The notes beneath the pieces were generated by a model. The model had not been told where the DNA came from and did no database searches. It saw only the letters and a program-made list of their open reading frames with translations. A stretch of DNA of 64,000 bases from the NCBI GenBank assembly GCA_963843575.1, contig CAWJKZ010000015.1, positions 64,001 through 128,000 on the forward strand, read 5' to 3'. A program made the translations under genes and the position numbers. Positions 4,983 to 13,226 of the stretch are shown piece by piece. The stretch comes from an uncultured Acidobacteriota bacterium. Lineage in GTDB: Bacteria; Acidobacteriota; UBA6911. Every line of letters begins with the position of its first letter. Positions within the stretch are counted from its first letter, which is position 1.

Positions 4983-5142
4983 GTAGGTCCGGGCTTCAGA
5001 GGCTGTCCAGCGGTCGATTGTGGAGTGCGGCGGCTCGACGCCGCTTTGGTGGCGGCGCCTAGGCGCCGCACTCCAGATTACTTCAGTTCGTCCGGATTGA
5101 AGGTCAACCGTTGGACAGCATCTGAAGCCCGGACCCACCTAC
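4983..5142. repeat. Composite REP cluster (GTRG-GTCCGGGCTTCAG pair enclosing a GGAGTGCGGCG pair)
   Basis: Inverted gtccgggcttcaga...tctgaagcccggac enclosing gtggagtgcggcg...cgccgcactcca. Confidence 0.8.
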
Positions 5143-5219: not shown

Positions 5220-5921
5220 TTAGCGCTTCGCCGGCTCTGTCGAGCCAAGCCAGCGGTACACGACCCCTGCGATGACGGCACCGATGAGCGGAGCGAGCCA
5301 GAAGAGCCACAACTGCGACAGGGCTTCGCCGCCGACGATCAACGCCGGTCCGGTGCTCCTGGCAGGGTTTACCGAGGTGTTTGTGACCGGGATGCTTATA
5401 AGGTGAATCAGGGTCAGACCAAGTCCGATGGCGATGGGGGCAAAGCCCTTCGGTGCACGCTCCTCCGTGGCGCCCAGAATGATCATCAAAAACATGAAGG
5501 TCATGACCACTTCGGTGGCGAACCCGGCGGCGAGCGAGTACCCGCCCGGAGAACGCCCGGCGTACCCGTTGGACGCGAGGCCGCCGCTCAGGTCGAAGCC
5601 CGCCTTGCCGCTCGCAATGAAATAGAGCAGCCCAGCGGCGACTATGGCCCCGAGAACCTGGGACAGCACATACGGGATGAGTTCGGAAGCCTTGAAGCGC
5701 CCGCCCGCCCAGAGACCGACAGACACTGCCGGGTTCAAGTGGCAGCCTGAAATGTGCCCGATCGCGTAGGCCATCGTAAGGACGGTCAATCCGAAAGCCA
5801 GGGCCACACCCAGCAGCCCGATTCCGACGTTCGGGAATGCCGCCGCAAGGACGGCGCTCCCGCAACCGCCGAGCACCAGCCAGAACGTCCCGATGAACTC
5901 CGCTGCGACTTTCTTCGTCAT
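5220..5921 (-). CDS. aqpZ: Aquaporin Z
   Basis: [22 protein letters not shown]-terminus; two NPA motifs (HLNPAVS, SVNPARS). Confidence 0.95.
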
Positions 5922-6560
5922 TGTGCAACCCTCCTTCTCATGATTCCGGGCAAGAGGATCCCGCGTTGGTCAACTGCGGTTCGCGACGACATTTCTCCGG
6001 CAGCGCCGCACCAATTCTTCGAAAGCGCCCGTGTGTCAACCTCAAGCGCCGGCCGCGCGTTCCGCACCAGATCCTCGTCCGGTCAGATCAGTTCACGGCA
6101 TCTCCAGACAGACACGGATGGTCACATTTTCACACTTGCGGATTGCGGCTCCGATGCTACACCATGGGCTTCCCCCCCCACAACAGCTGGCTCCCCTGGC
6201 TCTGCGATTCAGACACTGGGAGCCGCCCGTTGGGTCCCGGCTCAGGTTTTGGCAGGTCCGGCTGGTGAGTTTTTCATCACAGGAGCGACTTGTCCTCTTT
6301 GGGAAATCGAAAGGACACGGCTTCTTGTGATGTTGACGGACACCTCGGCGAGATCCTGGGGTTCGTATCGGCGGGAAAAGTTGGCGGAGTTTCCTTGCGG
6401 ATAATTACGAGAGCAATCAAGGTGCCCGGACAAGTTTGAGCTCTTGTTCGAGATCTCGTCTGAGCCTTCTGATCTTTTCGAGGATTTTCGTGCCGGCGTC
6501 TGCCGAGAGCGTCGGCAGAAGCTCGGTATGCTCCGCAGGGGTGAACAGAGCAAAGCGATT

Positions 6561-6726
6561 GCGGATCACGTACGGATACGCATGAAAACTGTGAACTCCG
6601 TGCAGTCGCATGGACAGATTGCTCGCCACGTACATCCATAGCGGCACCTCTTCCTTCTCGCGTGGCGAAGGATAGGTTTCGGCCAGCTTCCCCAGCACCT
6701 TCTTCGCTCCGATGTAACGGAAGAAC
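6561..6726 (-). pseudogene. Internal fragment of a putative transposase (copy of 9546-9711)
   Basis: 166-bp near-identical direct repeat (about 4 mismatches) encoding FFRYIGAKKVLGKLAETYPSPREKEEVPLW. Confidence 0.65.
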
Positions 6727-6974
6727 GCTCCACTGGATTCCGAAGCCATATCGGGTTTTCGCGGACCACGACTTGCAAAAACCAGTCGAGCCTGCCGTGT
6801 TATAGTGGCGCGTGTTTCCTGCCGCAATTCCCCGGTGACAGGAGCATGCGATTGTTTTACCTCTTTGGTTTCGGGTTCATAAATTCGATCCGGCATGGCA
6901 CTGCGGCTTGTGTGATGCGCCGGCGCCGAATCCTCAGGTTCTATGTTAGATAGCGCAGGCACGGGAGCAACTCG

Positions 6975-9161
6975 ATGTACTGCATACACTGTGGCTCGGA
7001 AAATCCCGACGTAGGAAATTTCTGCTCCAAATGCGGAAAGACCATGACCTCCACGCCGAGCCGAGCGCAAGGCGCCTCGGCCATGGATTTTGCCGAAACC
7101 GAGCTGGGTCTCTCTGCCGGGTATACCCTTGCGGGCCGCTACCGTATCGCGAGGGAGATCGGCAGCGGTGGGATGGGGCGGGTGTACCTCGGCCAGGATG
7201 GAAAGCTGAACAATATGCCGGTGGCCATTAAGGTTTTGCGAGACATGCTTAGCCGCGACGGCGGCTCGGTAAAGCGGCTCATCGTCGAAGCGCAACTTTC
7301 CATGCAGCTTTCTCACCCGAACGTCATCCGGGTGCACAATTTCGAAGATGATGGATTCACGAAGTTTCTGGTGATGGAGTATGTCGAGGGGGAGACGCTC
7401 AAGGATCGGATCGATCGCGAGAGCCGGCTTGCGGAGAGCGAGACGCGGCGCCTGGGAGCTGAAATCTGCAAGGGACTCGAGCACGCGCACGCGAAGAAAG
7501 TGATCCACCGCGATTTGAAACCAGGCAACATCCTGCTTGGGAAAGACGGTTCGGTGAAAATCGCGGACTTCGGAATTGCGCGGGTCTGCCGGGACTCGAT
7601 GTCACGGCTGACTTCACAGATGGATTCCGGGACGCTGCTGTACATGTCGCCGGAGCAGCTGGACGGGGAGAGTACGGAGGCGAGCGACGTGTATTCGCTG
7701 GGGGTTGTGCTGTATGAAATGCTAAGCGGGGATCCGCCCTTTCGAACCGGTGACATAGCCGGTCAGATCCGCACGAAGCAGCCAAAGTCGTTGGAGAATG
7801 TATCCGAGGAATTCAATACCCTGGTATCACGCTGTCTTGCGAAAAATGCGGCAGACCGTTTTACGAATGTCCGTGACCTGATGGAAGAACTTTCGGGGAG
7901 AGGCGAAGAGCGGCGAAAGGAGGCCGCCCGGCTTGCCGCCAAAATCGATGAGTTCAAGCGTCGAGGCACTCGGGCCTTCGATGACGGCAACTACTCTGAA
8001 GCGATTACGCAGTGGGCGGCTGCACTGGCACTAAAGCCGGAAGACCGGACATTAAACGAAGCCATCGATCGGGCGCGAAGAAAGAAAGTCGATGCAGAAA
8101 GAGCGGAAGCCGAGAGCCGGCGGGTCGAAGCTGAAAAAGTTGCCACGCTCCAAGAGCTGGAGAATGAACGTCAGCAGCGGCTCGTGGCAGCCAAGGACCA
8201 AGGCGAAACAGCCTTTCAGCAGGGGCAGTATGAGGCGGCAATCCAGCACTGGAATGCGGCGCTGGAGATTTCTCCGGGCAATACATGGATCAGCGAGGCG
8301 ATTGAGCGAGCCGCTGGTCGATTAGCGCAGCAGCAGGAGGCGCCACGCCGCTCATCTCCGGCGCCAATACCGACTAAGGGCGGTGTTGGCAATCAGATTA
8401 TCTTTGTCGCCCTGGGTGTACTACTAACCGTCGCTGTTGTCTGGATTTACCAGAACGCGACCCGGGATAGCGCTGCGGTCAAATCGCCGAGCGGCACCAA
8501 CAGCCTTGGTATGGTCTTTGTTCAGATTCCGGCGGGCTCGTTTGAAATGGGTTCGAATTCTGGTGATTCGGATGAGAAGCCGGTCCATCGGGTAACGATA
8601 AGCCGGGACTTTCAGATGCAGGCAACGGAGGTAACGCAGGGGCAGTGGGAATCGGTGATGGGAAGCAACCCAAGTAATTTCAAGAACTGCGGGAAGGATT
8701 GCCCTGTGGAGAGCGTGAGCTGGAATGAGGTCAAGGAATACATACGGAGGCTGAACGGGCGCAATGACGGGTGGGAGTATCGGTTGCCGACGGAGGCAGA
8801 ATGGGAGTATGCCTGCCGGGCGGGGACGACGGGGGATTATGCAGGGAATCTGGACAGCATGGGATGGTATGGTCCTAATTCGGGGAACACTACCCATCCA
8901 GTGGGGAAGAAAGAGAAGAACCGCTGGGGTTTGTATGACACGCACGGGAATGTATGGGAATGGGTAGAGGATTGGTACGGTCCTTATACTTCAGGGTCGG
9001 CTACTGATCCCAAGGGGCCATCCTCAGGCTCGGGCCGGGTGGACCGCGGCGGCAGCTGGTACGGCGTCGCCGGGGGCTGCCGGTCGGCCGATCGTAGCTA
9101 CGACTCGCCCGGCGACCGCAACGGCAGCCTCGGCTTCCGCCTTGTGGGGACGGCCCGCTGA
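6975..9161 (+). CDS. Zn-ribbon + Hanks-type Ser/Thr kinase + TPR + TM + C-terminal FGE-sulfatase (CLec-fold) protein; probable DGR target
   Basis: CIHC/CSKC ribbon; GSGGMGRVY, VAIK, HRDLKPGN, DFG and YMSPE kinase motifs; TPR-like helices; hydrophobic IIFVALGVLLTVAVVWIY; RLPTEAEWEYACRAG, GNVWEW and RGGSW..GFR FGE motifs. Confidence 0.92.
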   Translation: MYCIHCGSENPDVGNFCSKCGKTMTSTPSRAQGASAMDFAETELGLSAGYTLAGRYRIAREIGSGGMGRVYLGQDGKLNNMPVAIKVLRDMLSRDGGSVKRLIVEAQLSMQLSHPNVIRVHNFEDDGFTKFLVMEYVEGETLKDRIDRESRLAESETRRLGAEICKGLEHAHAKKVIHRDLKPGNILLGKDGSVKIADFGIARVCRDSMSRLTSQMDSGTLLYMSPEQLDGESTEASDVYSLGVVLYEMLSGDPPFRTGDIAGQIRTKQPKSLENVSEEFNTLVSRCLAKNAADRFTNVRDLMEELSGRGEERRKEAARLAAKIDEFKRRGTRAFDDGNYSEAITQWAAALALKPEDRTLNEAIDRARRKKVDAERAEAESRRVEAEKVATLQELENERQQRLVAAKDQGETAFQQGQYEAAIQHWNAALEISPGNTWISEAIERAAGRLAQQQEAPRRSSPAPIPTKGGVGNQIIFVALGVLLTVAVVWIYQNATRDSAAVKSPSGTNSLGMVFVQIPAGSFEMGSNSGDSDEKPVHRVTISRDFQMQATEVTQGQWESVMGSNPSNFKNCGKDCPVESVSWNEVKEYIRRLNGRNDGWEYRLPTEAEWEYACRAGTTGDYAGNLDSMGWYGPNSGNTTHPVGKKEKNRWGLYDTHGNVWEWVEDWYGPYTSGSATDPKGPSSGSGRVDRGGSWYGVAGGCRSADRSYDSPGDRNGSLGFRLVGTAR
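9027..9161 (+). other. Putative DGR variable region (VR)
   Basis: Abrupt switch to A-poor sequence. Variable positions of the RVxRGGSWxxxAxxCRSAxRxxxxPxxRxxxLGFR scaffold are almost all NNC codons, as expected from mutagenesis of AAC codons. Confidence 0.7.
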
Positions 9162-9280
9162 CGCTTTGCTCTTTTACCCTTTTACCCTTGGCATTTTCAA
9201 GGGAGCCGGGCGGCGGGACTGGCGAGGCGGAAAGGGGCGCATCTCAGCCCCTCCGCAGCGCCAGATCCCCTGCCCGGCTT
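9162..9280 (+). promoter_or_regulatory. Pyrimidine repeat plus long imperfect GC hairpin after the VR (putative IMH/target-recognition structure)
   Basis: cttttacccttttaccctt, then agccgggc..gggactggcg..gcgg..aggggc / gcccctccgc..cgccag.tccc..gcccggct. Confidence 0.55.
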
Positions 9281-9364
9281 CGGATTTTGGCGACGGCGCA
9301 GCATTACAAAAATGTTGCCTGAGGGTGGACGGCCTTGTGACTATGAACGTATGAGGTACCCGAG

Positions 9365-9481
9365 TTGTTACGCGCCCGAGTTTTGACAATCCGATTCGAC
9401 ACGCTGAATGAATCGTTCGACGATGCTCCGCTGCAGGAATTCATCAAGGACAAGGACGTGATCTCCATTCGTGACCATCTT
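9365..9481 (+). pseudogene. 5' fragment of an HRDC-domain DGR accessory-type gene
   Basis: LRARVLTIRFDTLNESFDDAPLQEFIKDKDVISIRDH resembles the N-terminus of DGR-associated HRDC proteins (recalled pattern). GAGG RBS. The frame then runs into antisense transposase sequence. Confidence 0.6.
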
Positions 9482-9815
9482 ATGAGCCAGGACCTTGTGG
9501 AAGCGCGCTATTCAGTGGCCCAAACGCGTTCAACATTCCACCGCAGCGGATCACGTACGGATACGCATGAAAACTGTGAACTTGGTGCAGTCGCATGGAC
9601 AGATTGCTCGCCACATACATCCATAGCGGCACCTCTTCCTTCTCGCGCGGCGAAGGATAGGTTTCGGCCAGCTTCCCCAGCACCTTCTTCGCTCCGATGT
9701 AACGGAAGAACTCCGTCTCGGCTACTTCGCTGACCCCGTCGACAAAATCGAATTCCCCACCGCGGAAGCATTCCAAGACATAGTTCTGATCGTATTCAAA
9801 TACGACAAGATCCAT
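9480..9815 (-). pseudogene. Truncated putative DDE transposase (N-terminal ~100 aa only)
   Basis: Directly downstream of a DUF6788-like gene, an arrangement typical of IS elements; partly duplicated at 6561-6726; no catalytic domain present. Confidence 0.6.
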
Positions 9816-9820
9816 GAGCC

Positions 9821-10198
9821 TCAGGATTCCTTTCGCCTGGCCGCTTCCAACTGATCGATGAGCTGGATCATCGCCTTATAGATTTGCCCCAGCCGAGCAC
9901 GGGCGCGCCGAAACTTCTGATACCGTTCCGTCAAAACCTGAAAGTCTTTCAACTCGCCGGAAGGAATGGTCATGAGCTTGGTCCTGCCGCCCTCGCTGCG
10001 GCTCAGCATCATCGAACTGTGATGCTCGCCGCCGGCACAGTAGCAATTCGGCTTGCCGCACTTGCGCCGCTGCTCATAGACGGTCCCCTTGATCATGGGC
10101 CGGCGGTCCGTGAAGGCAGGCACCAATTCTTGGATTTCCTCAGCAAGCTGAGAGAGAGATTGGCGGATTCGGCTGAGTCGGTCAGATTGTGGCTGCAT
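9821..10198 (-). CDS. DUF6788-like IS-associated small protein
   Basis: MIKGTVYEQRRKCGKPNCYC..H motif followed by a coiled helix. Confidence 0.75.
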   Translation of the reverse strand: MQPQSDRLSRIRQSLSQLAEEIQELVPAFTDRRPMIKGTVYEQRRKCGKPNCYCAGGEHHSSMMLSRSEGGRTKLMTIPSGELKDFQVLTERYQKFRRARARLGQIYKAMIQLIDQLEAARRKES

Positions 10199-10518
10199 GT
10201 CGCTATGCAGTATAACATGCAGACCGCCAAGCAAAGCAACCCCCAAAATCACGTTGTTGAAAAAATCATCGGTAAGCAGTCAAACGAAGGAAGTGGAATG
10301 TCCTGACACCCGCAACTGCAGCGGCTGTGGAATTATCCGGCGGCGGGCGGCTCCCAGTGTCTGAATCGCAGTCCCCTGGCTTTGCGCTTGGTATGGTCCT
10401 GGGCGGTGCTTCGGGTATATAGTAAGCGCGTCACGAACGGAAGCAGAGAGCCGCCCCGGCAGACCCGGAATCGCATTTCGCCCAGCCCCGGGGGCGGAAA
10501 ACTCCTTAGGAGGCCGTC

Positions 10519-11055
10519 ATGGATTTGTTGAGCATGCTGCTGAATCAGGGCGGTGGTGATACCGTTCGCCAGTTGGCCGGCAATTTCGGCCTGAACGAGG
10601 AGCAGGCGGTGTCCGCGATCTCCAACCTCGTGCCGGCGCTCGGTCAGGGACTGGCTCGTAACGCCGCGACACCTGGTGGGCTCGAGGGCCTGCTGGGCGC
10701 ACTGGGGGCAGGCGGGCACCAGCGGTACCTGGAAGATCCTTCGATTCTCGGCCAGGAAGAAACCGTCCGGGACGGCAACGGAATCCTCTCCCACATACTG
10801 GGCAGCAAAGACGTGAGCCGCCAGGTTGCCCAACAGGCGGCTGACAGGACCGGAGTCGGAGCCGACGTGCTGAAGAAAATGTTGCCGGTGGTCGCGGCGA
10901 TGATGATGGGGACTCTCAGCCGACAGAGCGCAGCGCCGACCAGTTCGCCGGCCGACGGCCTCATGGGCTTGCTGAGCGGGTTCCTGGACAGCAACCGCGA
11001 CGGCTCCGTCGTCGACGACGTCCTCGGGATCGCATCCCGGTTTTTTCAGAAATGA
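10519..11055 (+). CDS. DUF937 domain-containing protein
   Basis: DGNGILSHILG motif; C-terminal LDSNRDGSVVDD; AGGAGG RBS. Confidence 0.85.
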   Translation: MDLLSMLLNQGGGDTVRQLAGNFGLNEEQAVSAISNLVPALGQGLARNAATPGGLEGLLGALGAGGHQRYLEDPSILGQEETVRDGNGILSHILGSKDVSRQVAQQAADRTGVGADVLKKMLPVVAAMMMGTLSRQSAAPTSSPADGLMGLLSGFLDSNRDGSVVDDVLGIASRFFQK

Positions 11056-11102
11056 ACCGGGAACACTCAGACCGGATAGCTAACAATTTGGATGGAGGAA
11101 TT

Positions 11103-11501
11103 ATGGATCGCTTGGAAGAACTCAAGGGGAAGTACCAATCCGCACTGAAAGTCCTCGGACGGCCGGGTTTCCGGATCCACAACCTGCACGTGCAGGACAA
11201 CAAGCTCTTCCTCAAGGCCTCGGCCGGCACCCAGGAACTCAAGAACCTGGTGTGGGGAGAGATCAAGAGCGTCGATCGGGTCTTTGCCGATCTCACCTGC
11301 GATATCGCTGTCGATCCGAGCATCGCGCCGCCGCCGGAAGCGAAGACTCACAAGGTACAGCCCGGCGACACCCTCTCGAAAATCGCGAAGCAATTCTACG
11401 GGGACGCGAATAAGTACATGAAGATCTTCGAAGCCAACAAGGATCAGCTAAGCGATCCGAACATGATCAAGGTCGGACAAGTCCTGAAGATCCCAGAATA
11501 G
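11103..11501 (+). CDS. LysM peptidoglycan-binding protein (YgaU/Kbp-like)
   Basis: HKVQPGDTLSKIAKQFYGDANKYMKIFEAN...IKVGQVLKIP. Confidence 0.9.
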   Translation: MDRLEELKGKYQSALKVLGRPGFRIHNLHVQDNKLFLKASAGTQELKNLVWGEIKSVDRVFADLTCDIAVDPSIAPPPEAKTHKVQPGDTLSKIAKQFYGDANKYMKIFEANKDQLSDPNMIKVGQVLKIPE

Positions 11502-11514
11502 CGCGGAGGCAAGT

Positions 11515-11772
11515 ATGATGCATCTGCTGTGGACCATCATCATCGGCTTTATCGCCGGCGCTGTCGCGAAATTCATGATGCCGGGGAAGGACCCGGGAGG
11601 ATTCTTCATCACCACGGGGCTGGGAATAGGCGGAGCGCTGATCGCCACTTTCCTGGGGCGCTTCGTCGGCTGGTACCAGGAAGGGCAGTCGGCCGGCTTT
11701 ATCGCTGCCGTCGTGGGTGCCGTCCTTGTGCTGATCGTCTATCGCCTGATACGGAAGAGCCGCACCGCGTAA
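11515..11772 (+). CDS. GlsB/YeaQ/YmgE family membrane protein
   Basis: IIIGFIAGAVAKFMMPG...GIGGALI; three TM segments. Confidence 0.9.
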   Translation: MMHLLWTIIIGFIAGAVAKFMMPGKDPGGFFITTGLGIGGALIATFLGRFVGWYQEGQSAGFIAAVVGAVLVLIVYRLIRKSRTA

Positions 11773-11776
11773 CAAT

Positions 11777-12336
11777 CGGGGACGGACCAAGACAAGCGAT
11801 TTAGAATCAATTGCTTGACGTAATTTTGGCGCCCAAATCGCCCCTTAATCGCGCTTTTTGGCCCCGTTTTCCCGAAATAAGCCAGACAGGACAAGCCCGC
11901 GCAACCGGGGAGGTGAACAACCCTCCCCGCATTGTGCCGGTTGATGAAGCTGACGCGATCACAGCCATTCGGTGGACACGACAGGCGTGTGCGCCCTGGT
12001 TGTATTGAGCCCACTTAATCTGATCTTTATGCCCACATCCGCCTCCCCCCACGGGGCTGCTGTCGGGCCATAAGCGCCGCGCCAGCCGCTCGTCGATAAT
12101 CCCCTCGGGGGCGCCCAACCAGTGCCCTGCCGGCCGAGGGATGGCGCCGCGATGCCGAATGGTTCACGGTTGCCAGCGTCAAACTCACCACCCTGATCGA
12201 TCCGGACGAACGCGTCGGCGCAGATTACTGCGCTAATTCAAAAAAACGCTGGCAAAAGACGAAAATAGCGGGCTATTTTGAGGCAAAATATGCCATAAAG
12301 CATTAAAACAATTGGCTTTGCCTTGGTCCGTCCCCG
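11777..12336. mobile_element. 560-bp element bounded by 19-bp inverted repeats (CGGGGACGGACCAAG[A/G]CAA)
   Basis: 11777-11795 vs reverse complement of 12318-12336 match 18/19; IHF consensus AATCAATTGCTTG at 11805-11817; no TSD seen. Confidence 0.6.
12045..12118 (-). pseudogene. Fragment of a MacB/ADOP-type ABC permease
   Basis: IIDERLARRLWPDSSPVG matches the periplasmic motif (compare VINETMARQYWKDGDPL in 18561-21023). Confidence 0.5.
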
Positions 12337-13226
12337 TACTTGCGGGCGTGGGTGGCGTTTTCGGTGACCTGGTCGGTGAAGGCGGGGAGCATGCCGACGA
12401 TGACGCCGTCGGTCGGCTTGATGTTCTCGAAGGCGTATTTGAAGGCCTGCTCCGTCTGGGCTGGGTCTCCCGCACTCCAGCCGCCGGCCAGGATCTTGAA
12501 TCCGAAGCACGGCTTTCCCGTCCTGCGGATGGACTGGCACATCCGCTCTGGATCGGCCGGCCTGAACGTGCTCTGGATCGGCTTGAATCCCAGGATCTTT
12601 TTCCAGTCGGCCTCCTGCCGGCTCATCACGTAGAAGCATCCCATGAACAGGTCGTTCTCCCAGTTCTCGTCCGTGATCCTGTCGATGACCTCCGGTTCGT
12701 GGCAGGACACCCCTGCGAGCACCCCCACGTCCTTCACCTCCTTGACGAAGTCGTGGACGAGCTCGAATTTGTTGTTCCTCCAGTAATTGTCGGTCACCCC
12801 GCCATGGTGGACGATTGCGATCGGGCCGTAGCCGGCGGCCTCCTTCACGGTCACCTCTTTGGGATGGTACAGGATGACCAGCTGCATCTTCCCGCCCTCA
12901 TCCCGATAACGCTTCCAGGCGTTGGGAAAGCGTTTCGTGAAGTTCGTCTGGAAGGTGTTGATCCCCGCCCGTTCGGACTGGTGCAGGAGTTTGACGATGT
13001 TGTCGTCGTTGAAATACTGCACCATGAACTTGCTCATCAGTTCGCCCTGATAGCTATAACCCCACACGGGATTCGCGCCGAGCACGAGACGGGAAACGAG
13101 GAACTTGCCCAGCCGGATCTGCGGCATCGCGCCGGGGGTTGCGGAAGCAGGGAATCCGCCGGCCATCAGTCCCGCGGATATGCCGCACGCCGTTTTCAGA
13201 AACGCTCTCCTGGTGTCTGGACACAT
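12303..13226 (-). CDS. Tat-exported aldo/keto-reductase-like hypothetical protein
   Basis: TRRAFLK Tat motif; MPQIRLGKFLVSRLVLGANP; FKILAGG. Confidence 0.7.
   Translation of the reverse strand: MCPDTRRAFLKTACGISAGLMAGGFPASATPGAMPQIRLGKFLVSRLVLGANPVWGYSYQGELMSKFMVQYFNDDNIVKLLHQSERAGINTFQTNFTKRFPNAWKRYRDEGGKMQLVILYHPKEVTVKEAAGYGPIAIVHHGGVTDNYWRNNKFELVHDFVKEVKDVGVLAGVSCHEPEVIDRITDENWENDLFMGCFYVMSRQEADWKKILGFKPIQSTFRPADPERMCQSIRRTGKPCFGFKILAGGWSAGDPAQTEQAFKYAFENIKPTDGVIVGMLPAFTDQVTENATHARKYGDGPRQSQLF

What the first reader, a model, noticed from the sequence alone, without database searches (positions are those of the whole stretch)
9027..9161. Probable DGR variable region at the C-terminus of a membrane Ser/Thr kinase, with no TR or RT in the window
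Seen: the last 45 codons contain only about 13 adenines and none at third positions of sense codons, unlike the A/G-rich sequence just upstream. Variable residues are GAC, TAC-GGC-GTC, GGC, GAT, AGC-TAC-GAC, GAC, AAC-GGC-AGC, nearly all NNC/NNT. Established: DGR RTs mutate template adenines, so AAC/AAT codons become NNC/NNT in FGE/CLec-fold VRs. Inference: a template like ggctcgAACcgggtgAACcgcggcggcagctggAACAACAACgccAggAACtgccggtcggccAATcgtAACAACAACtcgcccggcAACcgcAACAACAACctcggcttccgc exists or existed. The topology (cytoplasmic kinase, TM, external CLec) would make a receptor kinase with diversifiable ligand specificity.
Basis: partly seen in the sequence, partly recalled or inferred. Interest (0 to 1): 0.85.

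Follow-up and report, generated by a model that had tools for sequence, protein, structure and literature searches.

The report
Orphaned DGR hypervariable tip, receptor kinase
The end of this membrane kinase gene was written by a mutagenic retroelement (a DGR), but that element is now reduced to two small gene scraps cut off by insertion-sequence DNA, so this is a known system that has very likely lost its engine.

Summary
Window 9027-9161 has 13 A (one of them in the stop codon) and GC 0.77, against 0.50-0.63 in the rest of the gene. It has 30 C-ending codons of 44, where the gene's own synonymous usage predicts 14±3 (0 of 5000 simulations reach 30).

It is a real DGR variable region (VR) at the C-terminus of a 728-aa Zn-ribbon / Ser-Thr kinase / TPR / TM / FGE-lectin protein.
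- It aligns codon for codon with TR/VR pairs of intact DGRs from other phyla, and differs from their templates mainly at template adenines.
- It is followed by a 21-nt element that occurs once in this genome and, in a subset of its hits elsewhere, directly follows the stop of FGE-type genes, several of them DGR targets, then by a GC-rich inverted repeat.
- Next come the first 37 codons of a DGR HRDC accessory gene and an 11-codon Avd scrap.
- Insertion-sequence DNA starts at 9517.

No DGR reverse transcriptase, Avd or template repeat was found in the 88%-complete assembly. The gene and the scraps lie in a 4.17-kb low-GC unit with 28-nt inverted ends and a 10-bp target duplication.

Verdict: an orphaned, probably frozen VR; a new member of a known kind; modest interest.

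The parts
6192..6201 (.). Left copy of the 10-bp target-site duplication, TCCCCTGGCT
   Evidence: Identical 10-mer at 10372-10381, directly outside the two inverted ends
6202..6229 (.). Terminal inverted repeat (28 nt) of the 4.17-kb IS-bounded unit
   Evidence: 100% complementary to 10344-10371
6561..6726 (-). 166-nt duplicate of an internal piece of the IS transposase gene (about residues 50-104)
   Evidence: 98% identical to 9546-9711. 84% aa identity to the 413-aa transposase frame of G016
6975..9161 (+). 728-aa receptor-type Ser/Thr kinase. Zn-ribbon at residues 2-22, Pkinase 56-299, TPR about 409-440, one TM helix 475-492, FGE-sulfatase/CLec domain 515-724
   Evidence: Pfam: Pkinase 5.6e-56, FGE-sulfatase 5.7e-44, TPR, Zn_Ribbon_1. 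Kinase motifs GSGGMGRVY, VAIK, HRDLKPGN, DFG and SPE are present, and the single strongest hydrophobic 19-mer starts at residue 474-475
9027..9146 (+). DGR variable region proper, from the start of TR/VR homology to the VR/TR divergence point (CTTGTG-GGG|AC)
   Evidence: Aligns with the TR/VR pairs of L090, L116 and L126. Mismatch to those templates is 0.68-0.73 at template A and 0.22-0.31 elsewhere. Composition tests
9129..9161 (+). IMH-like 3' end of the VR (CTCGGCTTCCGCCTTGTGGGGACGGCCCGC, then the stop)
   Evidence: Nearly identical to the VR ends of L116 and L126 (GGTTTCCGCCTTGTGAGGAC), whereas their TRs read GAGTAC. Assigning it as the IMH is inference
9162..9192 (+). Conserved post-stop element, core CTCTTTTACCCTTTTACCCTT at 9169-9189
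   Evidence: One hit with up to 4 substitutions in the 6.68-Mb assembly. Found after the FGE match end in 7 of 81 loci. 19 of 79 metagenome loci examined have an FGE match by tblastn: 17 end 11-49 nt before the element, L246 ends 156 nt before it, and L265's lies 1.7 kb downstream on the opposite strand, beside a second copy
9204..9279 (.). GC-rich imperfect inverted repeat downstream of the VR
   Evidence: DNA fold of 9140-9270: -33.8 kcal/mol, z = -3.2. Only hairpin-type (miRNA-like) sub-threshold Rfam matches. A GC-rich inverted repeat after the IMH is a described DGR feature (PMC5758913, passages read)
9368..9478 (+). Remnant: the first 37 codons or so of a DGR HRDC accessory gene
   Evidence: 16 of 38 identical to the start of the L090 HRDC protein, E=2e-10. 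tblastx also hits L116 and L126. The L090 and L116 proteins carry Pfam HRDC, about 1e-20
9482..9514 (+). Remnant: 11-codon scrap of avd (MSQDLVEARYS)
   Evidence: 9 of 11 identical to residues 62-72 of L090 Avd, E=2e-4 for the single comparison. 23 nt at 87%. Short, so only probable
9517..10343 (-). IS remnant: DUF6788 ORF (10252-9821) and the first 114 codons or so of a transposase (9851-9516)
   Evidence: 73% DNA identity to G016 contig L179 over 9517-10220, with the transposase matched for residues 9-114 only. DUF6788 7e-14
10344..10371 (.). Second terminal inverted repeat
10372..10381 (.). Right copy of the 10-bp target-site duplication

Best explanation
Window 9027-9161 is a variable region written by a diversity-generating retroelement (DGR). 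It forms the ligand-binding tip of the extracytoplasmic FGE-type C-lectin domain of a single-pass Hanks-type Ser/Thr kinase.

The DGR was encoded directly downstream, in the order target, conserved post-stop element, HRDC, avd, RT, TR. That is the order seen in related intact cassettes. It copied an adenine-rich template RNA into the gene with random bases opposite the template adenines.

The cassette has since been destroyed. Only about 37 codons of HRDC and about 11 codons of avd remain, joined in frame and abutting truncated insertion-sequence DNA at 9517.

The kinase gene, the scraps and the IS pieces form a 4.17-kb low-GC unit. It has 28-nt inverted ends and a 10-bp target duplication, and it inserted as a block between aqpZ and a DUF937 gene.

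The VR is therefore most likely frozen, and the protein now works as a receptor kinase of fixed specificity.

Shown: the composition break, the homology to real TR/VR pairs, the flanking element, the remnants, the IS junction, the inverted ends and target duplication, and that no RT, Avd or TR was found in the assembly.

Inferred: the topology (kinase inside the cell, lectin domain outside), that the lost cassette was the writer, and that diversification has stopped.
For: 1. Composition. See the observation check.

2. Homology to intact DGRs. Of 81 loci examined (80 from genome contigs plus the G010 locus L085), three have TR/VR pairs: L090, L116 and L126, with 22, 15 and 12 mismatches, of which 95%, 93% and 92% sit at template A. 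Those three and L115 also carry Avd and RT. The window tract aligns with them without frame problems. Against the three foreign templates it mismatches at 23 of 34, 22 of 30 and 24 of 34 template-A columns, but at only 26 of 90, 29 of 94 and 20 of 90 other columns. Real VRs against foreign templates give the same ranges (0.41-0.77 and 0.19-0.33).

3. Post-stop element. The 21-mer occurs once in the genome at up to 4 substitutions. In the metagenome scan, 19 of 79 loci examined have an FGE match by tblastn; 17 of these end 11-49 nt before the element. Of 14 such loci with at least 850 nt downstream, 8 carry Avd and/or RT.

4. GC-rich inverted repeat at 9204-9279.

5. Cassette remnants. HRDC start, E=2e-10. 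Avd scrap, 9 of 11 identical, E=2e-4. The intact gene order is seen in L090 and L116.

6. The best solved-structure relative is the Treponema DGR variable protein TvpA (2Y3C), E=1.9e-35. True FGE enzymes score 6.7e-21 or worse. The window protein has a 3-residue gap and one Cys where those enzymes have a Cys pair.

7. A paralogue's orthologue in a sister genus (G010) is followed by an Avd above the NCBIfam cut-off (86.5 bits) and by a DGR-type RT reduced to about 117 matching residues.

8. Loss of the engine. The RVT_1 and phrog_1423 searches find only three group-II-intron-type loci and one 732-aa Abi-like RT. No Avd was found. No TR was found by BLAST, by an adenine-tolerant ungapped scan whose best other hit has 30 non-A mismatches, by BLAST with foreign TRs, or by an AAY-codon density scan.

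9. Mobile unit. Inverted ends and target duplication. GC is 0.572, against 0.63-0.64 in the flanks. The transposase is matched for residues 9-114 only.
Against: - The assembly is only 88% complete, in 27 contigs. An RT and TR on an unassembled piece, plasmid or phage cannot be excluded.
- The VR looks fresh. It is as template-like as active VRs, and its jump in GC and C3 is larger than in the four active controls. A frozen relic does not require that.
- The Avd scrap is only 11 residues long.
- No cognate TR was found anywhere. A strict pattern gave 0 hits in genome contigs and 0 in metagenome contigs. The adenine-specific TR/VR difference that defines a DGR target is therefore inferred from foreign templates, not shown.
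Uniform A-to-N mutagenesis would rarely give no C. Selection or a biased RT may explain it.
- Five of the 14 FGE-linked metagenome loci with the element and 2.4-8 kb downstream, and one more with 1.2 kb, show no Avd or RT. The element alone does not prove an adjacent cassette.
Confidence: 0.8

Rival explanations
1. The VR is still being rewritten, in trans, by a DGR that lies in the unassembled 12% of the genome or on an unbinned plasmid or prophage. The dead cis cassette would then be irrelevant.
For: DGRs are reported to act on remote targets, some more than 100 kb away, and avd-TR-brt works from a plasmid (PMC5758913, passages read). One Bdellovibrionales MAG has 7 loci that match one TR with 14-24 mismatches, nearly all at template A. 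The window's IMH-like end, post-stop element and inverted repeat are intact. The VR's constant codons are richer in GC and C3 than the unit that carries it, and richer than in the active controls.
Against: No DGR-type RT, Avd or TR-like sequence was found in 6.68 Mb. Among 60 relatives, only G010 gave a DGR-type RT match, and that one is truncated. The same-genus genome G001 has none.
Confidence: 0.12
2. The tract is not DGR-related. It is the ordinary conserved C-terminus of an FGE-family domain whose GC-rich look comes from its Gly/Arg/Ser-rich sequence, or from a gene-conversion patch copied from a host paralogue.
For: The RGGSW...CRSA.R....P..R....GFRL pattern is common in FGE-domain homologues, including proteins with two or more such domains. 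The residues at the 'variable' sites (D, Y, G, S, N) also occur in the non-DGR paralogues of this genome.
Against: The break is synonymous as well as at the amino-acid level. No paralogue in the assembly could have donated the patch. None of the 9 other FGE genes shows the break. The tract is followed by a DGR-linked element, an inverted repeat and remnants of HRDC and Avd.
Confidence: 0.03
3. The VR was last written not by the cassette whose scraps follow it, but by a different DGR of the same clade in a GC-rich host. That DGR would have homed into a compatible IMH after the unit arrived.
For: By my hand count, excluding the first two positions of the 13 AAY-type codons, the constant positions of the VR are about 0.83 GC. 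The adjacent remnants and the gene body are 0.56-0.57. The jump exceeds that of the four active controls.
Against: TRs are generally richer in GC and C3 than their target genes. No such DGR was found in this genome or in the same-genus genome G001.
Confidence: 0.05

Closest known systems
Treponema denticola DGR and its variable protein TvpA (PDB 2Y3C); 'Architecture C' (HRDC-containing) DGRs of Wu et al. 2018 (PMC5758913, passages read)
   Same: The VR lies at the C-terminus of an FGE-type C-lectin fold. TvpA is the best solved-structure match, E=1.9e-35, and aligns through the VR. An HRDC accessory gene sits beside avd. Like TvpA, the domain lacks the catalytic Cys pair of FGE enzymes.
   Different: Here the cassette is dead: no RT and no TR. 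The target is a 728-aa transmembrane kinase, not a lipoprotein-type surface protein. The host is an Acidobacteriota-like genome; that placement rests only on the titles of the nearest loci.
Ser/Thr-kinase-CLec DGR targets and their paralogues in cyanobacteria (Vallota-Eastman et al. 2020, PMC7517822, passages read)
   Same: An N-terminal Hanks-type kinase fused to a C-terminal CLec domain that bears the VR. That paper also reports paralogues with leftover TR-VR homology but no nearby RT, transposases near variable proteins, and the idea that the diversifier is removed once a variant is selected.
   Different: Different phylum. Here a Zn-ribbon, TPR repeats and one TM helix place the lectin domain outside the cell, whereas most cyanobacterial examples are predicted to be cytosolic. 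The gene rides in an IS-bounded unit with a target duplication. The death of the cassette can be read directly from the HRDC and Avd scraps.
Intact cassettes found here: L090 (Rhodothermales MAG), L116 and L126 (Bdellovibrionales MAGs), L273 (metagenome contig)
   Same: The same VR backbone, the same VR/TR divergence point, and the same post-stop element. The gene order is target, HRDC, avd, RT, TR.
   Different: Those have full HRDC, Avd and RT genes. L090, L116 and L126 also have TRs with 12-22 adenine-specific mismatches; L273 was not tested for a TR. Their targets are not Zn-ribbon kinases; L090's is a 954-aa protein with a different N-terminus.
Decayed DGR in G010 (same family, another genus): STK-FGE gene, then Avd, then an RT stub
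   Same: The same protein architecture, 50% aa identity. aqpZ lies divergently upstream. A dead DGR lies directly downstream.
   Different: No HRDC. The post-stop element is degenerate. Its tail is less template-like, with 0.46-0.52 mismatch at non-A columns. Its true orthologue in this genome is the split gene on contig C10 (71-73% aa), not the window gene.

Membership tests
Active DGR target (variable region) | A template repeat in the same genome that differs from the VR only, or almost only, at template adenines | tested here: not met
   No TR in the 88%-complete assembly, by four methods. 0 hits for a strict pattern in genome contigs and in metagenome contigs. Only foreign templates could be compared.
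Active DGR target (variable region) | A DGR-type reverse transcriptase in the genome | tested here: not met
   Only group-II-intron-type RTs (C9, C17, C24) and one 732-aa Abi-like RT (C14) were found. Absence is not proven, because the assembly is incomplete.
DGR-written variable region (past or present) | The VR lies at the C-terminus of a C-lectin/FGE fold, with variable codons of the NNC/NNT type at the positions of template AAC/AAT | tested here: met
   Pfam FGE-sulfatase 5.7e-44. TvpA 1.9e-35. Codon table. Alignment with three real TRs.
DGR-written variable region (past or present) | An IMH-like 3' boundary followed by a GC-rich inverted repeat | tested here: met
   The VR end matches those of L116 and L126 up to the VR/TR divergence point. 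Inverted repeat at 9204-9279, z = -3.2. Function not tested.
DGR cassette, Architecture C (HRDC-containing) | HRDC accessory gene, with or without avd, beside the RT and TR | tested here: inconclusive
   Only the first 37 codons or so of HRDC (E=2e-10) and 11 codons of avd (E=2e-4) remain. The HRDC domain itself, the RT and the TR are gone.
Hanks-type Ser/Thr protein kinase | Gly-rich loop, VAIK Lys, HRD catalytic loop, DFG, and APE/SPE | tested here: met
   Pkinase 5.6e-56. All five motifs located. That these motifs define the family is recalled knowledge.
Formylglycine-generating enzyme (catalytic FGE) | The pair of active-site cysteines in the C-terminal segment | tested here: not met
   In the alignments to bacterial FGE structures (6MUJ, 2Q17), the window protein has a 3-residue gap and a single Cys where the enzymes read C..SYC. 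That these are the catalytic cysteines is recalled knowledge.
Insertion sequence / transposon | Terminal inverted repeats flanked by a target-site duplication | tested here: met
   28-nt perfect inverted repeats. 10-bp direct repeat TCCCCTGGCT on both outer sides.
Insertion sequence / transposon | An intact transposase gene | tested here: not met
   Only residues 9-114 of a frame that is 413 aa long in G016 are matched, plus a 55-residue duplicate. No other copy in the assembly.

The most novel reading that the evidence does not exclude
The roughly 31-nt sequence just after the stop codon has the consensus (T)AACCCTTTG-CTCTTTTACCCTTTTACCCTT-TG, and is usually followed by a GC-rich hairpin. It may be an undescribed cis-acting element of the TvpA-type DGR clade.

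It is kept almost letter for letter behind FGE-type genes, several of them DGR targets, in loci whose target genes range from 0.43 to 0.57 GC where measured (window, L090, L116, L126) and which come from several phyla (Acidobacteriota-like, Rhodothermales, Bdellovibrionales, and many metagenome contigs). It is absent from the template-repeat side.

It could mark the cassette-proximal target for cDNA integration, or be the start of the accessory-gene/RT/TR transcript. The window keeps it intact although the engine is gone.
Probability: 0.3. Interest if true: 0.55.

Novelty: new member of a known kind. Interest (0 to 1): 0.3.

Why it matters
This is a clear case of how a DGR dies while its product stays in use. 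The hypervariable tip, its landing signals and two gene scraps survive, and insertion-sequence DNA replaces the reverse transcriptase and template. The frozen receptor-kinase gene has also been moved as a block into a new genome site.

It extends kinase-lectin DGR targets, described mainly in cyanobacteria, to an Acidobacteriota-like lineage with a clearly transmembrane design. It also shows that a composition and codon break at the 3' end of an FGE-domain gene detects DGR history reliably, even with no RT or TR in view.

The conserved post-stop element is a testable lead on how this DGR clade recognises its targets.

Tried and rejected
- Cognate TR. A strict IUPAC pattern built from the constant VR bases gave 0 hits in genome contigs and 0 in metagenome contigs.
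- Population variation. The look-up of sequencing runs gave one freshwater-sediment run holding 0.07 of the sampled words. Laying it showed only two 151-nt contigs at 98-99% identity inside the gene (8042-8192 and 8272-8422), plus short low-identity pieces on the conserved FGE core. The VR was not covered, so nothing can be said about variation there.
- Close alleles. In the 5.8-billion-protein search restricted to residues 490-728, no listed hit other than the window's own protein exceeded 62% identity. Only the 8000 best candidates were scored and 120 were listed.
- Orthologue in relatives. The DNA search of 60 relatives gave no match above 74% over more than 200 nt.
- Viral scan for the element. 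None of the 27 hits lay near an FGE, HRDC, Avd or RT gene. They are chance matches in AT-rich contigs.
- Metagenome scan for the element. About 57 of the 79 loci examined are unrelated T-rich tandem repeats.
- Empty-site test for the unit. In the same-genus genome G001, aqpZ and the DUF937 gene lie on different contigs, so no empty site could be shown.
- aqpZ synteny with G010. I first read this as orthology of the window gene. I rejected that because the G010 gene is 71-73% identical to the C10 paralogue and only 50% to the window gene, and the upstream regions share no DNA similarity.
- Rfam. Only sub-threshold miRNA-like hairpin matches.
- phrog_1423 as a DGR-specific RT model. It also scores group II intron RTs highly, so it is not specific.
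- Literature on the element. One full-text search for a 15-letter core of it found 0 papers. That one search does not show it is unpublished.
- Not done: structure prediction, complex prediction, and the protein-representative search. The TvpA match made them unnecessary.
Full report
**1. The observation.**
The ORF at 6975-9161 (+) encodes 728 aa. Its last 135 nt (9027-9161) hold 13 A, 48 C, 56 G and 18 T. GC is 0.77, and no sense codon ends in A.

The fifteen preceding 135-nt blocks of the same gene hold 25-43 A each. Their GC is 0.50-0.63, and they have 7-19 C-ending codons, against 30 here.

I redrew the 44 tail codons 5000 times from the gene's own synonymous usage. This gave 14.1±3.0 C-ending codons and 89.5±3.3 G+C. 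The observed 30 and 103 were never reached. For A-ending codons P=0.003, and for total A P=0.022. The break is therefore synonymous, not just an effect of Gly/Arg-rich protein sequence.

None of the nine other FGE-domain genes of this genome shows the break. Four real DGR targets found later show the same break in the same direction, though smaller.

**2. The gene.**
Pfam finds these domains:
- Zn-ribbon, residues 2-22
- Pkinase, residues 56-299 (5.6e-56)
- TPR, about residues 409-440
- FGE-sulfatase, residues 515-724 (5.7e-44)

All Hanks-type kinase motifs are present. One strongly hydrophobic segment, residues 475-492, separates the two halves. A cytoplasmic kinase with an external lectin domain is inferred from this layout.

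The best solved-structure relative of the C-terminal domain is TvpA, the Treponema denticola DGR variable protein (2Y3C, E=1.9e-35), aligned through the tail. True FGE enzymes score 6.7e-21 or worse. They carry a Cys pair where the window protein has a gap and one Cys. The domain is a binding module, not an enzyme.

**3. No engine in the genome.**
The window is G000:C15:64001-128000. The assembly is 6.68 Mb in 27 contigs, 88% complete.
- BLAST with the tract finds only the tract itself.
- An ungapped scan that forgives mismatches where the genome has A gives, as its best other hit, 30 non-A mismatches.
- Three foreign TRs hit only the window's VR, and an AAY-codon density scan finds nothing FGE-like.
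- RVT_1 and phrog_1423 find three loci with group-II-intron-type RTs (C9, C17, C24) and one 732-aa Abi-like RT (C14).
- The Avd model NF033474 finds nothing.
- tblastn with BPP-1 Brt and Avd and with the G010 Avd and RT adds nothing.

**4. Relatives with intact DGRs.**
The search for related loci returned 80 loci similar to the FGE domain, at 37-64% identity. The titles of the nearest ones name Acidobacteriota, Bryobacterales and Terriglobia MAGs.

A script looked for repeat pairs whose mismatches sit at A in one copy, and for RT and Avd. L090 (Rhodothermales), L116 and L126 (Bdellovibrionales) have TR/VR pairs with 22, 15 and 12 mismatches, of which 95%, 93% and 92% sit at template A. These three loci and L115 have Avd and RT.

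In L090 and L116 the gene order is target, a roughly 170-aa HRDC protein, Avd, RT, TR. Wu et al. 2018 call HRDC-containing DGRs 'Architecture C', represented by the Treponema DGR (PMC5758913, passages read).

The window tract aligns with these pairs from GGCTCG (9027) to CTTGTG-GGG|AC. Against the three foreign templates:

| Columns | Window VR mismatch | Real VRs vs foreign templates |
|---|---|---|
| Template-A | 0.68-0.73 | 0.41-0.77 |
| Other | 0.22-0.31 | 0.19-0.33 |

**5. What follows the stop codon.**
The 21-mer CTCTTTTACCCTTTTACCCTT (9169-9189) occurs once in the genome at up to 4 substitutions. It follows the FGE match end in 7 of the 81 loci: L086, L090, L108, L115, L116, L126 and L129.

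In one Bdellovibrionales MAG, seven loci match one TR. Only two of them carry the element, so it is not required of every target.

An exact-pattern scan of metagenome contigs stopped at 120 hits. Of the 79 loci with DNA, 19 have an FGE match by tblastn. In 17 the match ends 11-49 nt before the element. In L246 it ends 156 nt before it, and in L265 it lies 1.7 kb downstream on the opposite strand, beside a second copy of the element. Three more loci look the same by eye. Of 14 FGE-linked loci with at least 850 nt downstream, 8 carry Avd and/or RT. The remaining loci are unrelated T-rich repeats.

After the element comes a GC-rich inverted repeat at 9204-9279. The fold is -33.8 kcal/mol, z = -3.2. 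This kind of repeat is described downstream of the IMH (PMC5758913).

**6. Remnants of the cassette.**
tblastx of 9150-9600 against the target-to-avd intervals of L090, L116 and L126 found two pieces.
- Window 9368-9478 encodes the first 37 residues or so of the HRDC accessory protein: 16 of 38 identical to L090, E=2e-10, and 14 of 35 identical to L116.
- In the same frame, MSQDLVEARYS (9482-9514) matches Avd residues 62-72 of L090: 9 of 11 identical, E=2e-4.

From 9517 the DNA is 73% identical to an IS copy in G016. That copy's transposase frame is 413 aa, and the window matches only residues 9-114 of it. The rest of HRDC, most of avd, the RT and the TR are therefore gone.

**7. The mobile unit.**
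- 28-nt perfect inverted repeats at 6202-6229 and 10344-10371.
- A 10-bp direct repeat, TCCCCTGGCT, on both outer sides.
- A 166-nt internal duplication, 6561-6726 and 9546-9711.
- A DUF6788 ORF.
- The unit's GC is 0.572 throughout except in the VR. The flanks are 0.63-0.64.
- The IS sequences occur nowhere else in the assembly, apart from a 149-nt piece on C23.

I read this as a defective IS-derived element that carried the kinase gene and the cassette stub into this site. How the internal junctions arose is not resolved.

**8. Family context.**
The genome has three paralogous Zn-ribbon/STK/TPR/TM/FGE genes: the window gene, a split gene at the start of contig C10, and one on C14.

In G010, a genome of the same family but another genus, the orthologue of the C10 gene (71-73% aa) is followed by an Avd (86.5 bits, above the cut-off) and by a DGR-type RT reduced to about 117 matching residues. 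No TR is present.

Among 60 relatives, no other DGR-type RT was found with the L090 RT as query. The other matches are 26-31% identical; most lie in frames of about 400-480 aa, and I read them as group II intron RTs. These tallies include the unpublished genome G046, and no positive claim rests on it.

**9. Comparison and novelty.**
- Kinase-CLec DGR targets, paralogues with leftover TR-VR homology but no RT, and transposases beside variable proteins are described for cyanobacteria (PMC7517822, passages read).
- A kinase domain in a target is listed by Wu et al. (PMC5758913).
- Pkinase appears among the target domains in PMC10907252 (passages read).
- Earlier notes of this scan report several orphaned DGR tips.

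This is therefore a new member of a known kind. The points specific to this case are:
- the transmembrane design of the target;
- the Acidobacteriota-like host;
- the readable wreck of an HRDC/Avd cassette;
- carriage in a unit with a target-site duplication;
- the conserved post-stop element, for which one string search found no paper.

**10. Verdict.**

| Statement | Probability |
|---|---|
| Written by a DGR | about 0.95 |
| Cis cassette dead | about 0.9 |
| VR now frozen | about 0.8 |
| Still served in trans from unassembled DNA | about 0.12 |

Interest: 0.3.

Noticed in passing
window 9162-9192; L090:3177-3208; L116:10780-10812; L218-L293 (metagenome loci): A post-stop element of about 31 nt, (T)AACCCTTTG-CTCTTTTACCCTTTTACCCTT-TG, usually followed by a GC-rich hairpin. 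It is conserved nearly letter for letter behind FGE-type genes, several of them DGR targets, from several phyla and over a range of GC contents. It is absent from the TR side. One literature string search found nothing.
   Followed up: partly
window 6192-10381: A 4.17-kb low-GC (0.572) unit with 28-nt perfect inverted ends and a 10-bp target duplication. It carries the kinase gene, the DGR scraps, a DUF6788 ORF and a truncated transposase. It also has an unexplained 166-nt internal direct duplication (6561-6726 and 9546-9711).
   Followed up: partly
window 5220-5921 and L085 (G010:C24) 12509-13222: aqpZ lies divergently upstream of an STK-FGE gene in both G000 and G010. Yet the two kinase genes are paralogues (50% aa), the window gene arrived inside a mobile unit, and the same-genus genome G001 has no kinase beside aqpZ. 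The shared position is unexplained.
   Followed up: partly
G000:C10:74-2588 (locus L025): A second Zn-ribbon/STK/TPR/TM/FGE gene, split into a kinase ORF and an FGE ORF. It sits 73 nt from the start of its contig, so whatever followed it (Avd and an RT stub follow its G010 orthologue) is not assembled.
   Followed up: partly
L085 (G010:C24:224000-243900) 9184-12234: A decayed DGR in a sister genus: an STK-FGE target, an intact-looking Avd (86.5 bits), and an RT cut to about 117 matching residues directly against a pyruvate dehydrogenase E1 gene. No TR.
   Followed up: yes
L105, L108, L110, L112, L119, L126, L130 (one Bdellovibrionales MAG contig, CBDCLX010000002.1): Seven dispersed FGE-type genes all match a single TR with 14-24 mismatches, nearly all at template adenines. 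This is a multi-target DGR spread over about 2.6 Mb.
   Followed up: partly
window 5021-5075: A palindromic element of about 50 nt (arms 5021-5044 and 5052-5075). It has more than 100 copies at 84-98% identity, often in tandem arrays, in the same-genus genome G001. It looks like a REP-type repeat.
   Followed up: no
G000:C14:756309-758507 (locus L063 943-3141): A 732-aa ORF with a weak RT match (E=3e-11 to phrog_1423) and a WGDD-like motif, which I read as an Abi- or defence-type RT. It lies about 5 kb from the third STK-FGE paralogue (C14:749940-752087).
   Followed up: no
G000:C9:75700-76933, C17:1-1654, C24:402536-403518: Group-II-intron-type RT genes. Two are frameshifted or carry stop codons, and one lies at a contig end. 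Such repeats may explain some of the contig breaks.
   Followed up: no
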